Source: the human T2T-CHM13v2.0 reference genome, Homo sapiens. Taken from it: a DNA stretch of 64,000 nucleotides. The notes beneath the pieces are model-generated. The model saw nothing but the letters and a program-made list of their open reading frames with translations. It had not been told where the DNA came from and searched no databases. Numbering within the stretch: position 1 is the first letter of the stretch; each line of letters begins with the position of its first letter. The stretch lies in the NCBI RefSeq assembly GCF_009914755.1, contig NC_060932.1; one strand, written 5' to 3'. Position numbers and translations under genes: made by a program. Shown piece by piece: positions 12,289 to 58,430 of this stretch.

Positions 12289-13695
<1,407 letters not shown>

Positions 13696-15010: not shown

Positions 15011-16884
15011 AGGAAACAACTTCCTGTTGTGCTTGGATGAACGTCACTGCTCAGGTGGGACAGTTCATACACCCTACAAGGCCAAAAGCTATGTGGTTAT
15101 ATGAGTAAGACCTGCTGGTCCCCTCTGGGAATTACTCAGCTACGTATGTCCAGGATCCAGGGGGCATAGCTGAGATCAATGTTGCCAGTCGGCCTCATCC
15201 TACCGACCAGGATTCTGTTGACAATATCTCAATCTAATGTTGTATGAGACAAATTAAACACATTTTGTCCCAGCCCCTGTCAGTGTGTCTAATCTGAGCT
15301 GCTGACAGGGTGACAGACTTGTGTGAAAACTTCAGTCCAACCAAGAAGGTGGAGGGACAAAAGGGTGAATTGTGGAGAGGGATGTCGCCGCACGCCTGTG
15401 CTCATGTCCCAGTTCACAAGGCTTAACTGTCCTCAGATCCTGAGCTAGCTCTGCAGCGAGTTGCATAGTATCAGGTAGGCTGAGGGAGTTACAGCCAGCA
15501 CTACTCATTCCTGCTGGGGCAGGGGTGGGGACTGGCCTGTCCATGCTTTAGAAAGGCTGCCGAGCTCATGGCCATGAGTGCCTCAACTACGGCACCACCC
15601 ACTGCGTGCATAGTCACCATCTGGGTGTATCACATTTCATGGAACTTCGAGACAGGAGTACTGGGGCCACCACACTGATGCTGTCAGCCTTGCTGTGCAC
15701 AGGAATCTCATTGCCTACTTCCAGCTCTGATGAAGCCACCTCAAGCCAAGCTGCTTGCTTGCTTAGTTGTTCTTGTTGGAGTCATGCCATCCTCTGTGAC
15801 ATTGGGGTTGTGCCCTGACATCGGGCAGGAGATGAAAGCAGGAGTTTCCCATGCAGCCAGACTTGGATGACATTCAGCTTTGAATGCATTGTGTCTTAAA
15901 GAGAATCCATGATGAGATTTCAAGACAGAGGTGGTGGTGGTGGTGGTGGTGCCCCAAGCAGCCTTCATTCCTGTGACATTAAGGACTTCAAGGTACAGAG
16001 GCTAAGAGACGTGAAGAAAGACAGCAAGACTGAGATAGAAATGAAAGAAGGAGCCAGGCCCAAATAAGTATTTCTGTTTCTGTCTGATCCTTGGCTATTT
16101 TCCAATCCTCAACCAAGATGAAAACTCCCCGAATTTGGCTTTGGATTAGAATTGCTCTGTCCCTCGGATGAGAGGCAGTAAAAACTTCCTGGCTGAACTG
16201 CTGCTCTGCCGGGCCTTCACTTCACTTCAAACGGCATGCATTGTCTAATTTGCATAGTTCTGCATTTGTGATTTGAGCTAAGTTTGTGGAGATGGAAAAG
16301 ATGAGGTTCTTCCTATCCTAACAGCTAAAACAGATGGCCGTGGATCCAATTTGTTTAGAATAAATTACTGCTACCGTAAGTGGAATAATTTACCCATATG
16401 ATTTTTGTAAAAATCCTTCAGCTAAATCAGCTAGTCTCAGTAACACTACTTGGATAATGACTCTCCTTAGAGAATATAATTTACTGAATACCAGGTAAAC
16501 AGAAATTAGCAAATGCAACTGAGCAGTGATTTTGAGCATCTAGGTGATGATGTAAGGAATCTACATAATATAAAATTGTAATAATTTACAAACAAAAAAC
16601 TTACCACCTTATATTAGAATCTAAGATCCCACACATGATAAGGTACTGTATTATCACCACTAAAAAAGACCTAGTTATGGTTTAGAACTCTTCCATTATA
16701 ACATAGACCTCATTCCAATCAGAAACTCTCTCTTTATAGGACAGTCACAACTTTTGTCTCCAGGAATTTCTTTCAAGCTGTTGATATCCTGCCTTCAAGT
16801 TTTGATGCTCATACTTTTAAAATTTTACTAGAATGTGTCAAGGGAAAATTCCTAAACAATGAGAAAGCCATTTAAAATGCCAAT

Positions 16885-17468
16885 TGTGATAGTTAATTTG
16901 GGCTGTCAACTCGACTGTATACCCAGACAGCTGGTAAGGCATCCTTTCTGGGTGTGTCTGGGAAGGTGTTTCCAAAAAATAAAAAGAAATGGCATTTGAA
17001 TCAGTGGACTGAGTAAGAAAGATCCACCCTCACACAGTGTAGACAAGCACCAATCGATCAGCTGAAGTCCCCAATGGAAAAAAAGGCAGAGAAAAGGTGA
17101 ATTGTCTCTCTCTCCTGTAGCTGGGACACCTGTCTTCTCCAGCCCTTGGACATGAAAACTTCAAGTTCTGCAGCCTTTGGACTCCAGGACATGCAGCAGC
17201 AGTGCCTCCGTGTTCTCAGGCCTTCAGCCTCTACCTGAGTTACACCACCAGCTTCCTTGGTTCTGGGCCTTCAGACTTGGACTGAGCCATCCTGCTGGCT
17301 TCCCTGATTCCCGAGCTTGCAAATCTATGGTGGAAATTATAATCCTCCAAAACCACATGAGCCAGTTTTTCCTAATAAATCCCTTCTCATATATCTATAC
17401 CTATCTGTTATAGATATGTGTACGTATATACTTTTTTATTGTTTCTATCTCTCTGGAGGACTAATACA
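16885..17468 (+). mobile_element. MLT2 (B/C-like) 5' LTR of an ERVL
   Basis: tgtgatagttaat...gtcaactcgact...ctgggtgtgtctg...gactaataca; aataaa near 17374; joined directly to ERVL internal sequence. Confidence 0.9.
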
Positions 17469-17591
17469 GATGTTGGTCCCATGAGAGGTTCTGGAGAAGG
17501 AGAATTTTAAGGATGAGTTCCCAGCATTGGTTTTAGGTGCTCTGGCATTATCTCTCTCATCAGATTGCACTTTAAAATGCTAAGGACTGCA

Positions 17592-17897
<306 letters not shown>

Positions 17898-18018
17898 CTA
17901 AGGACTCTATTACTACTAGTACAGGGAGCACTGATAATCCGTAATGTAACTCTTCATACAGACACACAAAACATCTGCATTAGATTCTCCTAATCAACCC
18001 CTTATAGGAGGCAGAAAG

Positions 18019-19255
18019 TTTTTTCTTTTTTCCTTCCAACCTCATTTTAGGTTCAGGGGGCACATGTGCAGGCCTGCTGCACAGACCATCTCCTCACCCA
18101 GGTAATGAGCACAGAACCCCATAGGCAGCTTTCCAATCCTCACCCTCCTTCTGCCTCCACCCACAAGCAGGCCCCGGTGTCTACCACTCCCCTTCTTGTG
18201 TCCATGTGTACTCAATGTTCAGCTCCCACCTGGAAGTGAGAACATGTGGTTATTTGGTTCCCTACTTCTCTGTTCATTGGCCCAGGACAATGGCCTCCAG
18301 ATCATCCAGGCTGCCACAAAGGTCATAACCTTGCATCTCCCTGTGGCTGTGTAGTATTTCATGGTGTTGATGCACCACACTTTCCCCAACCAGTCCACTG
18401 CTGATGGGCATCCACATAAACCCCCTCTCTCTGCTGCTGTGAATAGTGCTGTGATGAACATGTGTGTCCATGTGTCTTTATGGAGGGTTGACTAATACTC
18501 CCCTGGGCACATATCCAGCAATGGGACCACTGGGTCGAATAGTAATTCTGTTTCAGATTACCTGAGAGATCTCCAAACTGCTTTTCACAGTGGCTGAACC
18601 AATCCACATTCCCACTAGTGGCGTACAAGCTCTCTACCTTCCCTGCAACCTCACCAGCACCTGCTTCTTAACTTTTTAGTGCTAGCCATTCTGACCAGTG
18701 TGAGATGGCATCCCACCATGTTTTGGTTTGCACTTCTCCAATGAATAGTGATGTGGAGCATTTTTCCATATGTGTGTTGGCCACATGCGTGCCTATCCTC
18801 AAGAAGTGTCCATCCACGCCCCTTACCCCTGTTTCAATGGAGTTGTCTGTTCCTTTCCGGCTGATTTAAATTCCTTATAGATTCTGGATACTAGATCTCT
18901 GTCGAATGCATAGTTTGCAAATATTTTCTCCCATCCTATAGGTTGTTCACTCTGCTGACAGTTTCTTCTGCTGTGCAGAAGCTGCTCAGTTCAACCAAGT
19001 CCCACTTGTCAATGTCTGCCTTTGTTGCAGTTGCCCCTGGAGTCTTCATCCTGAAATCCCTGCTGGCACCAATGTCCAGAATGGTACTTCCCAAGATTTC
19101 CACAGCTTTATGTGTTACATTTAAGTCTTTATCTTGAGTTGATCTCCATACATGGTAAACGGAAGAGGTCCAGTCCCAATGTCCCCACACAAGGCTAACC
19201 AGTTATCTCAGCACCATACACCAAAACAGGGGGTCCTCTCCCCACTGCCTGTCAT
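18019..19255 (-). mobile_element. L1PA (old primate, PA13-16-like) 3' fragment, A-to-G hypermutated
   Basis: T-rich tail, then antisense 3'UTR and ORF2 end; ORFs on - give degenerate ORF2 (MFITALFT..., [21 protein letters not shown]). Confidence 0.9.
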
Positions 19256-19384
19256 TTTTGGCCCATAGGCAAGAAACGTAGTGACTCTATATAATACTTT
19301 CAAACCTGTGGAAAACTAAAGAATATGATGGTTGGCTGTTCCTAATGTCACTGACAGAATGGAGAAAGAAGAGGGTTAGGTCAA

Positions 19385-19822
19385 TGATGTAGCTTGGATA
19401 CTTGCCAACGTGCCCATCTCATGTTGAAACGTAATCCCCAATCTTGGAGGTCGGGCCTGGTGGGAGAGGTGTTTGGACCGTGGGGCAGACCCCTCATGAA
19501 TGGCTTGGACCATCCCCTTGGTGATGAGTGAGCTCTCGCTCTGAGTTCACACAAGTTCTGGTTGTTTAAAAGTGTGTGGCCCCTCCCCTCATTCTCCCTC
19601 TCCCTTTCTTTCTTGTTCCAGCTTTCACCGTGTAACGTGCCTATTCCCTCTTCACCTTTAGCCATAATTATTGTTTCCTGAAGCCTCACCAGAAGCTGAC
19701 CAGATGCCAGCACCATGCTTCCTGTACAGCCTGCAGAACCGTGAGCCAATTAAACCTCTTTTCTTTATAAATTACCCAGCCTCAGCTATTTCTTTATAGC
19801 AATCCAAGAATGGCCTAACGCA
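19385..19822 (+). mobile_element. MSTB-like MaLR solo LTR
   Basis: atctcatgttgaaacgtaatcccc...gagccaattaaacctcttttctttataaattacccag. Confidence 0.9.
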
Positions 19823-20580
19823 ATCAGGGATTTGAATTTCCATATCACGCTCCACATAAATAACCTAAGAATTTCTAGGTATGCCTTGAAGGAGAATCTT
19901 CTCTCTGTAGCTATGGGACAGAAATGGCCAAAAATCAAACACTACTCCTCATCGTGTGATTCTGCCTGAATTACAACAAAAGTTGAACTCTCAGCCTTGC
20001 AAGCTATCTACTGTTAAAGTGAAGACCTTGGTTGGGGAAAAATGGGATCTTGCAAGTTGTGAAGGGGACATGTGAGAAGCCCCTGATGGGGCTGGGGACA
20101 CTGCATCTCTAAATTCTGATGAGTTATTTTTGCCAAAGAAAGTGGCCTCCCCACCTGCAGTGGTATTGGCCTCTCCACTTATGTCTAAGGAGATTAACCC
20201 TGCAGTACCTGAGAAAACAGCACTACTCCCCTGAGACAGTTGTCAAGCAAGACAAAGCTAATGCTCCTCAGGACCCACCCCAGTTTCTCTTTGCTTCTAG
20301 ACTTATAACCAGACCCACATCCCAGCAGCCCCTAAAGACAAGGTACAATGTGTGGCCCAAGAGAAGCTGCCTGCTCTGCAAAAGAACTCCTTGAGTTTCC
20401 TGATTTGTACAAGCAGAAATCTGGGGAACACATGTGAGACTAGATATTAAGGGTGTGGGATAGTGGTAGAAGGAACATAAAGTTGGATCAGAGGATCAGA
20501 CTGAATTCATTGACATGGCTCCACTAAGCAGAGATTCTACATTTATTGCTGTAGCTTGGGGAGTTAGAAAGGGTTCTAAT

Positions 20581-57885: not shown

Positions 57886-58430
57886 TATATACCACTTGAT
57901 CCATCAATCCCATTACTGGGTACATACCCAAAGGATTATAAATCATGCTGCTATAAAGACACATGCACACGTATGTTTATTGTGGCACTATTCACAATAT
58001 CAAAGACTTGGAACCAAGCCAAATGTCCAACAATGATAGACTGGATTAAGAAAATGTGGCACATATACACCATGGAATACTATGCAACCATAAAAAAGGA
58101 TGAGTTCATGTCCTTTGTAGGGACATGGATGAAGCTGGAAACCATTCTCAGCAAACTATCACAAGGACAAAGAAACCAAACACCGCATGTTCTCACTCAT
58201 AGGTGGGAATTGAACAATGAGAACACATGGACACAGGAAGGGGAACATCACACACCGGGGCCTGTTGTGGGGTGGGGGGAGGGGGGAGGGATAGCATTAG
58301 GAGATACACCTAATGTTAAAGGACGAGTTACTGGGTGCAGCACACCAACACGGCACATGTATACATATGTAACAAACCTGCACGTTGTGCACATGTACCC
58401 TAAAACTTAAAGCATAATAATAAAAAAAAA
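57886..58430 (+). mobile_element. L1PA (PA3-5-like) 5'-truncated 3' fragment
   Basis: ORF2 C-terminus DWIKKMWHIYTMEYY; G-rich 3'UTR tract; A tail; short TSD aaagata. Confidence 0.95.

What the first reader, a model, noticed from the sequence alone, without database searches (positions are those of the whole stretch)
18019..19255. L1 copy with strand-specific A-to-G hypermutation: a candidate ADAR-hyperedited RNA fixed in the germline genome
Seen: compared with the old L1PA consensus as I recall it, this antisense L1 has dense T-to-C changes on + (A-to-G on the L1 RNA strand), often in runs. Examples: tcctttgggtatatacccagtaatgggattgctggg becomes tcccctgggcacatatccagcaatgggaccactggg (~18499-18534); gaactaatttacatt becomes gaaccaatccacatt (~18596-18610); tagtttaattagg becomes cagttcaaccaag (~18987-18999); gcttttgg becomes gcccctgg (~19033-19040). 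A hand count over ~600 nt gave roughly 60 T-to-C against about 10 A-to-G; this needs a formal alignment. Several TTG sites now read CCA (ctaccact, ggaccact, cccaccatg), as expected if T-to-C first created CpGs that later decayed, so the event is ancient. The flanking ERVL and the other L1s here (12295-13695, 57886-58430) show no obvious such bias. Established: reverse transcriptase reads inosine as G, and APOBEC3 editing gives G-to-A instead. Inference: this L1 RNA was in dsRNA, was hyperedited by ADAR, and was still inserted. Editing would wreck ORF2, so either it happened after translation or the RNA was mobilised in trans. That would be an RNA-editing-to-DNA route of mutation and a fossil record of ADAR anti-L1 activity.
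Basis: partly seen in the sequence, partly recalled or inferred. Interest (0 to 1): 0.9.

Follow-up and report, generated by a model that had tools for sequence, protein, structure and literature searches.

The report
A-to-G hypermutated L1 insertion, ADAR-like
An old, truncated L1 retrotransposon copy on human chromosome 8 carries about 116 extra A-to-G changes on its RNA-sense strand only, confined to the inserted piece, which is best explained by ADAR editing of the L1 RNA before it was copied into germline DNA.

Summary
I compared the copy with 29 L1 copies from the same genome. It has T>C at 142 of 497 T sites on + (28.6%) and A>G at 21 of 244 A sites (8.6%). All other substitution classes match the 29 copies (T>C pooled 5.2%; p=1e-59; about 116 excess changes).

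- **Extent:** the excess fills every 100-bp bin of the insert. It falls to a mild bias in the flanks.
- **Insertion type:** two paralogous "empty sites" show a canonical L1 insertion with an 11-13 bp target-site duplication and a poly-A remnant.
- **Age:** new CpGs created by the changes have decayed (10 of 12 against 7 of 92), so the burst is ancient.
- **Sequence context:** edited A's prefer a 5' U or A (46%, 39%) over G or C (20%, 11%), as ADAR does. The 3' G enrichment is only a trend.
- **Siblings:** none found.

Best reading (~0.7): ADAR-hyperedited L1 RNA was reverse-transcribed and inserted. Primate orthologues and a genome-wide scan could not be run. My ten paper searches found no report of such an L1 fossil.

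The parts
18009..18020 (.). Left copy of the target-site duplication (AGGC-AGAAAGTT). Its last bases merge with the T-run.
   Evidence: In two paralogous copies of the host repeat (L061, L062) the left and right flanks are contiguous and overlap by 9-13 bp.
18019..18031 (-). Remnant of the L1 poly-A tail. It is a T-run on + of 13 bases with one C at 18025.
   Evidence: Read directly from the sequence. It lies between the left duplication copy and the first L1-homologous bases.
18032..19262 (-). Body of the 5'-truncated L1 (C-terminal part of ORF2 plus 3' UTR), with the L1 sense strand on -. It carries 142 T>C changes on + (A>G on the L1 sense strand), from 18032 to 19253.
   Evidence: Own-genome search gave 15421 first-look candidates, 40 of them scored. 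Substitution spectrum. Even spread of 21-50% of T sites per 100-bp bin. L1 homology ends at 19248-19262 in 16 of 22 local alignments.
18942..19142 (-). Stretch whose translation matches human LINE-1 ORF2 protein residues 961-1031.
   Evidence: phmmer against PDB chains: 8uw3_A, 8sxt_A, 9k6g_A and others, E = 3e-16 to 7e-16.
19263..19266 (.). Four bases at the 5' junction of the insert, of unassigned origin (either the L1 end or filler).
   Evidence: They lie between the last L1 alignment end (19262) and the start of the right duplication copy (19267).
19267..19279 (.). Right copy of the target-site duplication (AGGCAAGAAACGT).
   Evidence: same paralogues as for the left copy.
17881..18008 (.). 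Left flank. It is part of an older interspersed repeat into which the L1 inserted, and served as a control.
   Evidence: 71 genomic candidates, 40 scored, at 71-82% identity. Pairwise window=C/other=T 43 against T/C 21; G/A 41 against 33; 10 pairs.
19280..19840 (.). Right flank. It continues the same older repeat and includes a roughly 450-bp LTR-like repeat at about 19370-19840. It served as a control.
   Evidence: Pairwise counts for the LTR-like part: 414 against 279 (C/T) and 302 against 277 (G/A), 29 pairs. For 19267-19400: 22 against 13 and 33 against 30, 7 pairs.

Best explanation
A sense-strand L1 transcript of a family now about 14% diverged was held in long double-stranded RNA, most simply paired with an antisense L1-containing transcript. 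An ADAR adenosine deaminase deaminated about a quarter of its adenosines to inosine over at least its 3' 1.2 kb. The L1 machinery then used this RNA for ordinary target-primed reverse transcription. Reverse transcriptase read each inosine as G. The 5'-truncated copy, with its poly-A tail and an 11-13 bp target-site duplication, was fixed in the germline inside an older repeat.

Shown here: the strand-specific A>G burst, its confinement to the insert, the canonical insertion anatomy, its antiquity and the absence of siblings.

Inferred: that the deaminase was ADAR, that the substrate was dsRNA, and the timing relative to translation.
For: 1. Specificity. Only one of 12 substitution types is raised: T>C on + at 142/497 against 5.2% in 29 other copies. 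A>G is 8.6% against 6.7%, C>T 8.3% against 11.5%, G>A 13.1% against 11.5%, and transversions 3.9% against 4.9%. A base-specific deamination fits this. A sloppy polymerase does not.

2. Strand. The changed base is A on the L1 RNA-sense strand. The sense strand is identified by the ORF2p match on - and by the poly-A/T-run.

3. Extent. Every 100-bp bin has 21-50% of T sites changed. The first change is 13 bases inside the left edge and the last is about 13 bases inside the right edge.

4. Boundaries. Flanks that are contiguous in paralogues L061 and L062 define a target-site duplication. Net pairwise C/T excess is 1.1-1.8 per 100 bp in the flanks against 8.3 in the insert.

5. Context. Edited fraction by 5' neighbour: U 34/74, A 77/198, G 13/66, C 12/107 (chi-square p=4e-8; G against the rest, odds ratio .51, p=.04). 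3' G is highest at 24/67. Published ADAR context is G depleted upstream and enriched downstream (PMC4365171, passages read) and an excess of 5' A/U (PMC8586724, passages read). The low value for 5' C is expected, because A>G there creates a CpG, half of whose decays revert the edit.

6. Age. At + TG dinucleotides, G>A occurred in 10 of 12 cases where the T had become C, against 7 of 92 where it had not (p=4e-8). Divergence at non-T sites is 13.9%, equal to the median of the 30 compared copies. This fits one burst at or before insertion followed by ordinary decay.

7. No siblings.

8. Plausibility from papers. Sense and antisense young LINE-1 RNAs form dsRNA and are A-to-I edited in mouse embryonic stem cells (PMC13674447, passages read). 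ADAR-type A>G clusters are carried into integrated retroviral DNA for RAV-1, ALV, HTLV-2 and STLV-3 (PMC8586724, passages) and for BLV (PMC8025556, passages).
Against: - The enzyme is inferred. No test here can show ADAR action.
- 3' G enrichment, part of the published ADAR motif, is not significant (24/67 against the rest, odds ratio 1.33, p=.32).
- 5' G depletion taken alone is only p=.04.
- The raw order G > C at the 5' position differs from the recalled ADAR1 order C > G. I explain this by CpG decay, which is an inference.
- The W-A context is also the hotspot of error-prone polymerase eta (recalled).
- Cell-culture work found no A-to-I changes in more than 2.5 kb of L1 RNA with ADAR1 over-expressed (PMC5224506, passages). 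None were found with ADAR2 over more than half of the element (PMC8677026, passages).
- The flanks also show a mild same-direction bias (C/T ratios 1.5-2.0 against G/A 1.1-1.2). So up to about 14-22 of the 116 excess changes could be regional.
- Orthologues were not examined. The sibling search scored only 40 of 15421 candidates.
Confidence: 0.7

Rival explanations
1. An error burst during retrotransposition rather than RNA editing. Either first-strand synthesis by the L1 reverse transcriptase or second-strand synthesis by a low-fidelity polymerase repeatedly made the A:C or T:G mispair. A skewed dNTP pool could have helped. The result would be A>G on the sense strand.
For: It gives the same strand and the same confinement to the insert as observed. 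The preference for a 5' A/T neighbour resembles the W-A hotspot of polymerase eta (recalled, not tested).
Against: No other substitution class is raised. Transversions are 3.9% against 4.9% in other copies, and the other three transitions are within the reference range. Known low-fidelity polymerases make many kinds of error (established knowledge, recalled). A rate of about 24% of all A's, and 39-46% at W-A, is far above the recalled polymerase eta T:G error rate of roughly 1 in 18. A dCTP-high, dTTP-low pool would predict enrichment of 5' G and depletion of 5' A through next-nucleotide effects. The opposite is seen (the prediction is my inference).
Confidence: 0.12
2. A post-insertion, DNA-level process on the L1-sense (-) strand at this locus. 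One example is deamination of dA in the DNA strand of RNA:DNA hybrids (R-loops) formed by transcription across the element. Another is a local transcription- or replication-linked asymmetry.
For: The flanks show a mild bias in the same direction (C/T 43 against 21, 22 against 13 and 414 against 279, while G/A ratios are 1.1-1.2). Some regional strand asymmetry may therefore exist. ADARs can edit DNA in RNA:DNA hybrids in vitro (recalled, not read here).
Against: The burst starts and stops within about 13 bases of both insertion junctions defined by the target-site duplication. Its density is 5-8 times that of the flanks. A locus-level process has no reason to respect the edges of a 1.25-kb insert. 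Ten of 12 new CpGs have already decayed, so the changes are old rather than continuing to accumulate. No gene is annotated in or within 100 kb of the window (hub annotation supplied with the finding).
Confidence: 0.06
3. The copy belongs to an unsampled L1 lineage, or was gene-converted from one, whose master already carried these C's. The differences would then be diagnostic positions, not a burst in this copy. Alternatively the excess is an alignment artefact.
For: Only 40 of 15421 first-look candidates were scored. Siblings of this age would be only about 76-79% identical to the candidate, so they would not stand out strongly. One 110-base stretch of another copy reached 85% identity.
Against: That copy (L063) is 72% identical over 1218 bases and reads C at only 10 of 132 edit sites. 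Across 30 compared copies the share of edit sites reading C is 1.4-15.3%. An edit-rich 30-mer matches only itself at up to 3 mismatches. An edit-rich 22-mer gave 15 non-self matches against 5 for the reversed control; none of the 5 closest that I fetched (of those 15) is L1-homologous beyond the motif. The MAFFT-based and BLAST pairwise counts agree. Even an edited master would still need the same mechanism one step earlier.
Confidence: 0.04
4. GC-biased gene conversion or regional drift towards higher GC content in distal 8p.
For: The surrounding region is fairly GC-rich (0.44-0.51 in 400-bp windows). The flanks show slight window-lineage AT>GC excesses on both strands.
Against: The process is strongly strand-asymmetric per available base (28.6% against 8.6%, p=8e-11). 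It is confined to the insert. Biased conversion treats both strands alike.
Confidence: 0.02

Closest known systems
ADAR 'biased hypermutation' carried into retroviral DNA (RAV-1, avian leukosis virus, HTLV-2/STLV-3, BLV proviruses)
   Same: Clusters of A>G on the RNA-sense strand, made on RNA and written into DNA by reverse transcription and integration, with a 5' A/U preference (PMC8586724 and PMC8025556, passages read).
   Different: Those cases are exogenous retroviruses in somatic cells or culture. Clusters can be short (about 70 bp in BLV). Here the template is a non-LTR L1, the tract covers the whole 1.2-kb insert, integration was by target-primed reverse transcription, and the product is an ancient germline allele.
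APOBEC3 DNA-editing fossils in retroelements (Knisbacher and Levanon 2016, PMC4866542; Zaranek et al. 2010, PMC2873906; Carmi et al. 2011, recalled and not held)
   Same: An innate-immunity deaminase hypermutates a retroelement intermediate. The element still integrates and the burst is preserved in the genome as strand-specific clustered transitions.
   Different: APOBEC3 deaminates C in minus-strand cDNA, which gives G>A on the sense strand. Here the sense-strand change is A>G, and the APOBEC direction is not raised (C>T on + 17/205 = 8.3% against 11.5% in other copies). In PMC4866542 A-to-G served only as the reverse-direction filter (passage read).
ADAR1 and ADAR2 as restrictors of L1 retrotransposition (PMC5224506; PMC8677026)
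   Same: The same two players. [quoted passage not shown]
   Different: Those studies detected no A-to-I change in the L1 RNA they sequenced, and ADAR1 inhibition was editing-independent (passages read). This locus would be evidence that hyperedited L1 RNA does exist and can complete insertion.
Hyper-edited cellular RNAs and L1 dsRNA (Porath et al. 2014, PMC4365171; PMC13674447)
   Same: Dense A>G on one strand, upstream G depletion, and long sense/antisense duplexes of young LINE-1 that are edited in embryonic stem cells (passages read).
   Different: Those are RNA-level observations with no DNA consequence. Here the pattern is in genomic DNA.

Membership tests
ADAR (A-to-I) hyperediting footprint | Clustered A>G on one strand only, with no rise in other substitution types | tested here: met
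   Sense-strand A>G 142/497 against the reverse-strand equivalent 21/244. All other classes lie within the range of 29 other copies.
ADAR (A-to-I) hyperediting footprint | G depleted, and U/A favoured, one base 5' of edited A | tested here: met
   U .46, A .39, G .20, C .11. Chi-square p=4e-8. G against the rest: odds ratio .51, p=.04. The motif is as stated in PMC4365171 and PMC8586724 (passages).
ADAR (A-to-I) hyperediting footprint | G enriched one base 3' of edited A | tested here: inconclusive
   G is highest (24/67 = .36, against .24-.32 for the others) but not significant (p=.32; overall p=.40).
ADAR (A-to-I) hyperediting footprint | The substrate was double-stranded RNA | not testable with these tools
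   The source locus and the partner RNA of an insertion this old are unknown. Support is indirect only: L1 sense/antisense dsRNA in embryonic stem cells (PMC13674447, passages).
ADAR (A-to-I) hyperediting footprint | Dependence on an ADAR enzyme | not testable with these tools
   This needs an experiment (see decisive next steps).
LINE-1 insertion by target-primed reverse transcription | Homology to L1 ORF2 and the L1 3' end | tested here: met
   The minus-strand translation matches human ORF2p residues 961-1031, E about 4e-16. The element is 68-73% identical to many genomic copies. Pfam gave no hit for 4 stop-free pieces.
LINE-1 insertion by target-primed reverse transcription | 3' poly-A tail | tested here: met
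   13-base T-run on + at 18019-18031, directly next to the left duplication copy.
LINE-1 insertion by target-primed reverse transcription | Target-site duplication around the insert, and an empty site elsewhere | tested here: met
   The flanks are contiguous and overlap by 9-13 bp in two paralogues of the host repeat, L061 and L062.
LINE-1 insertion by target-primed reverse transcription | Endonuclease cleavage-site consensus (TTTT/AA, recalled) | tested here: inconclusive
   The paralogous empty site reads roughly ...AAACTT/AG... on the primed strand. This is a loose variant only.
APOBEC3 DNA-editing footprint | G>A excess on the element's sense strand (C>T on + here) | tested here: not met
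   C>T on + is 17/205 = 8.3%, against 11.5% in the other copies.
GC-biased gene conversion tract | Equal weak-to-strong rates on both strands, not bounded by the repeat | tested here: not met
   28.6% against 8.6% (p=8e-11). The flanks have 5-8 times lower excess.

The most novel reading that the evidence does not exclude
ADAR hyperediting followed by L1 retrotransposition is a real RNA-editing-to-germline-DNA route. It can write more than 100 A>G changes into heritable DNA in a single event. If so, this copy is one of a scattered, so far uncatalogued class of hyperedited L1 (and perhaps Alu, SVA and retrocopy) fossils. Those fossils would record, over tens of millions of years, that L1 RNA in germline or early-embryonic cells formed long sense/antisense duplexes, met ADAR, and could still be reverse-transcribed.
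Probability: 0.6. Interest if true: 0.75.

Novelty: new variant of a known kind. Interest (0 to 1): 0.68.

Why it matters
APOBEC-type hypermutation fossils in retroelements are well described. ADAR-type hypermutation is known for RNA viruses and for a few exogenous retroviruses. For L1 the published cell-culture work I read found no editing of L1 RNA at all (PMC5224506, PMC8677026). A 2016 review said that a role of ADAR editing in retroelement evolution "has not yet been determined" (PMC4982230, passage, said about Alu).

A clean germline example would show three things:
- Hyperedited L1 RNA exists in cells that contribute to the germline.
- Inosine-rich RNA is an acceptable template for target-primed reverse transcription.
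- RNA editing can become heritable DNA change in one step.

It would also give a simple signature for a genome-wide census: sense-strand A>G excess bounded by target-site duplications. Such a census would make past ADAR-L1 conflict measurable.

Caveat: this is one locus. The literature check covers only the open-access library. Carmi et al. 2011 and the 2015 Knisbacher and Levanon review could not be read and may mention A-to-G cases.

Tried and rejected
- **PDB search with the whole minus-strand translation.** It failed on 12 stop codons. A stop-free piece worked.
- **Pfam.** Four stop-free ORF pieces gave 0 families.
- **Other L1s in the window as references.** Only two short overlaps at 67-69% identity. 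They were too few, so I used the own-genome search instead.
- **Sibling search.**
  - Whole-element search: best non-self hit 72-73%.
  - 131-base edit-rich piece: best hits 85-86% over 91-110 bases. The top one (L063) proved to be an ordinary 72% copy sharing 10 of 132 edit sites.
  - 22-mer pattern: 15 non-self matches against 5 control. I fetched the 5 closest of these 15; 3 match the candidate only over 18-24 bases and 2 not at all. The other 10 were not examined.
  - 30-mer pattern: matches only itself.
- **Left-flank search.** I then fetched only short paralogue stretches.
- **Rejected readings.** APOBEC editing and GC-biased conversion were rejected on the spectrum.
- **Literature.** Ten full-text searches found no paper reporting an ADAR-hyperedited L1 insertion in a genome. 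The nearest item is a tentative remark on the 5' end of an endogenous MMTV whose sequence context did not fit ADAR (PMC12548423, passage). Carmi et al. 2011 is not held.
Full report
**What is there**

Window 18019-19266 is a 5'-truncated L1 3' fragment whose sense strand lies on the - strand.
- The minus-strand translation of 18942-19142 matches human LINE-1 ORF2 protein residues 961-1031 in five PDB sequences, E = 3e-16 to 7e-16.
- A search of the window's own genome returned 15421 first-look candidates. Forty were scored, and the best non-self matches were 68-73% identical.
- The element ends on + with a 13-base T-run (18019-18031), which is the poly-A remnant.
- L1 homology stops at 19248-19262 in 16 of 22 local alignments.

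**Insertion anatomy**

The 138 bases to the left (17881-18018) and the 114 bases to the right (19256-19369) each hit an older interspersed repeat. The left flank gave 71 candidates with 40 scored; the right gave 21 with 21 scored.

At two genomic places the left-flank and right-flank hits abut and overlap by 9-10 bases. Direct alignment of these two paralogues (L061, L062) shows that the window's flanks are one continuous sequence there. AGGCAAGAAAC(T)T occurs once in the paralogues but twice in the window, at 18009-18020 and 19267-19279.

This is a canonical target-primed insertion with an 11-13 bp target-site duplication. The host repeat continues into a roughly 450-bp LTR-like unit at about 19370-19840 and leftwards to about 16884. 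I recall this sequence as a MaLR (THE1/MST-type) LTR, but no tool named it.

**The observation**

I aligned the candidate with 29 L1 copies from the same genome. Reference-to-reference identity averages .764 and candidate-to-reference .697. Each column was polarised by the majority of the other copies.

| Substitution (on +) | Candidate | Pooled other copies |
|---|---|---|
| T>C | 142/497 (28.6%) | 791/15168 (5.2%) |
| A>G | 21/244 (8.6%) | 6.7% |
| C>T | 17/205 (8.3%) | 11.5% |
| G>A | 29/222 (13.1%) | 11.5% |
| Transversions | 46/1168 (3.9%) | 4.9% |

- The same leave-one-out test on each of the 29 copies gave T>C of 2.7-12.7% and T>C/A>G ratios of 0.39-2.40, against 3.32 for the candidate.
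- Candidate against references: p = 1e-59. The excess is about 116 changes.
- Consensus-free pairwise counts agree: 3385 against 670 for C/T, and 1009 against 856 for G/A, over 29 pairs.
- Base composition shows the same shift. T is .302 against .407 and C is .289 against .180. A and G are unchanged.

**Extent and boundaries**

T>C affects 21-50% of T sites in each of 13 bins of up to 100 bp. The first change is at 18032 and the last at 19253.

| Region | Window=C/other=T vs T/C | Window=G/other=A vs A/G | Pairs | Net C/T excess per 100 bp |
|---|---|---|---|---|
| L1 insert | 3385 vs 670 | 1009 vs 856 | 29 | 8.3 |
| Left flank | 43 vs 21 | 41 vs 33 | 10 | about 1.8 |
| Right flank | 22 vs 13 | 33 vs 30 | 7 | about 1.1 |
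| LTR-like unit | 414 vs 279 | 302 vs 277 | 29 | about 1.1 |

The burst is therefore confined to the inserted DNA. The flanks do carry a mild bias in the same direction. It could account for at most about 14-22 of the 116 excess changes (my arithmetic from those calls).

The two other L1 fragments in the window give C/T ratios of 1.01 and 1.38.

**Age**

At majority + TG dinucleotides, the G became A in 10 of 12 cases where the T had become C. It did so in 7 of 92 cases where the T was kept (p=4e-8).

Divergence at sites whose majority base is not T is 13.9%. This equals the median of the 30 compared copies, whose range is 8.9-26.8%. The copy is thus as old as its family, tens of millions of years by inference, and carries one extra burst.

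**Siblings**

- No compared copy reads C at more than 21 of 137 of the candidate's edit sites. The range over 30 copies is 1.4-15.3%.
- A 131-base edit-rich piece found hits of 85-86% over 91-110 bases. The best one is an ordinary 72% copy.
- An edit-rich 30-mer matches only itself at up to 3 mismatches.
- A 22-mer gave 15 non-self matches against 5 for the reversed control. The five closest are not L1 beyond the motif.
- Caveat: only 40 of 15421 candidates were scored.

**Mechanism**

The changed base is A on the RNA-sense strand, and only that one substitution class is raised. This points to base-specific adenine deamination of the L1 RNA before reverse transcription, with inosine read as G (established knowledge).

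The neighbour test on 445 sense-strand A sites, 136 of them edited, gave these edited fractions:

| Neighbour | U | A | G | C | Test |
|---|---|---|---|---|---|
| 5' | 34/74 (.46) | 77/198 (.39) | 13/66 (.20) | 12/107 (.11) | p=4e-8; G vs rest odds ratio .51, p=.04 |
| 3' | .32 | .31 | 24/67 (.36) | .24 | not significant, p=.40 |

In the 29 other copies A>G is .04-.06 in all contexts.

The published ADAR context is upstream G depletion and downstream G enrichment (PMC4365171, passages), together with an excess of 5' A/U (PMC8586724, passages).

The low 5' C value is expected. Editing a CA dinucleotide makes a CpG. Ten of the 12 surviving edits at such sites have lost the C, so a similar number probably reverted. 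That would put the original rate near 20% (inference).

Sense/antisense LINE-1 duplexes that are A-to-I edited have been described in mouse embryonic stem cells (PMC13674447, passages). ADAR-type clusters are known in integrated retroviral DNA (PMC8586724, PMC8025556, passages).

**Rivals**

- **Polymerase-error or dNTP-bias burst.** It fits the strand and the boundaries. It should also raise other error classes, and it does not.
- **Locus-level DNA process** (for example on R-loops). It has no reason to stop at both insertion junctions.
- **Hidden subfamily.** Not supported by the sibling tests.
- **GC-biased conversion.** Excluded by the strand asymmetry (p=8e-11).
- **APOBEC direction.** Not raised.

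**Against the ADAR reading**

- 3' G enrichment is only a trend.
- W-A context is shared with polymerase eta (recalled).
- Two cell-culture studies saw no editing of L1 RNA (PMC5224506, PMC8677026, passages).
- Orthologues could not be checked.

**Novelty**

Ten full-text searches found no report of an ADAR-hyperedited L1 insertion preserved in a genome.
- A 2016 review says the role of ADAR editing in Alu evolution "has not yet been determined" (PMC4982230, passage).
- APOBEC-type fossils are established (PMC4866542, PMC2873906, passages).
- Carmi et al. 2011 and the 2015 Knisbacher and Levanon review are not held and could bear on this claim.

I rate it a new variant of a known kind.

**Verdict**

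The enzyme, the dsRNA partner and the cis-or-trans question remain inferred.

Noticed in passing
window 17881-18018, 19267-19400, 19370-19840: The DNA flanking the L1 shows a mild window-lineage excess of T>C on + (C/T pair ratios 2.0, 1.7 and 1.48). A>G on + is only 1.24, 1.1 and 1.09. This may be a weak regional strand asymmetry linked to replication or transcription, or it may be noise from non-independent pairs.
   Followed up: partly
window 17594-17880: A roughly 287-bp insertion splits the same older repeat. I recall its sequence as an Alu. In a paralogue on contig C11 the sequences on its two sides are contiguous: 2322291-2323016 and 2323000-2323113.
   Followed up: partly
window 12295-13695: Against the same 3'-end L1 copies, this other L1 fragment shows window=A/other=G 401 against window=G/other=A 221 (ratio of G to A 0.55), while C/T is balanced at 328 against 325 (21 pairs). 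The cause could be subfamily differences, CpG decay or a G>A bias on +. I did not examine it.
   Followed up: no
window 16884-17593 and 19256-19840: The L1 and the Alu-like insert both sit inside one older ERV-like element, with an internal part followed by a roughly 450-bp LTR-like unit. Its paralogues are 69-84% identical. No tool named its family.
   Followed up: partly
window 18025: A single C interrupts the poly-A-derived T-run (ttttttcttttt). It could be an edited A within or next to the tail, or a later substitution. It cannot be polarised.
   Followed up: no
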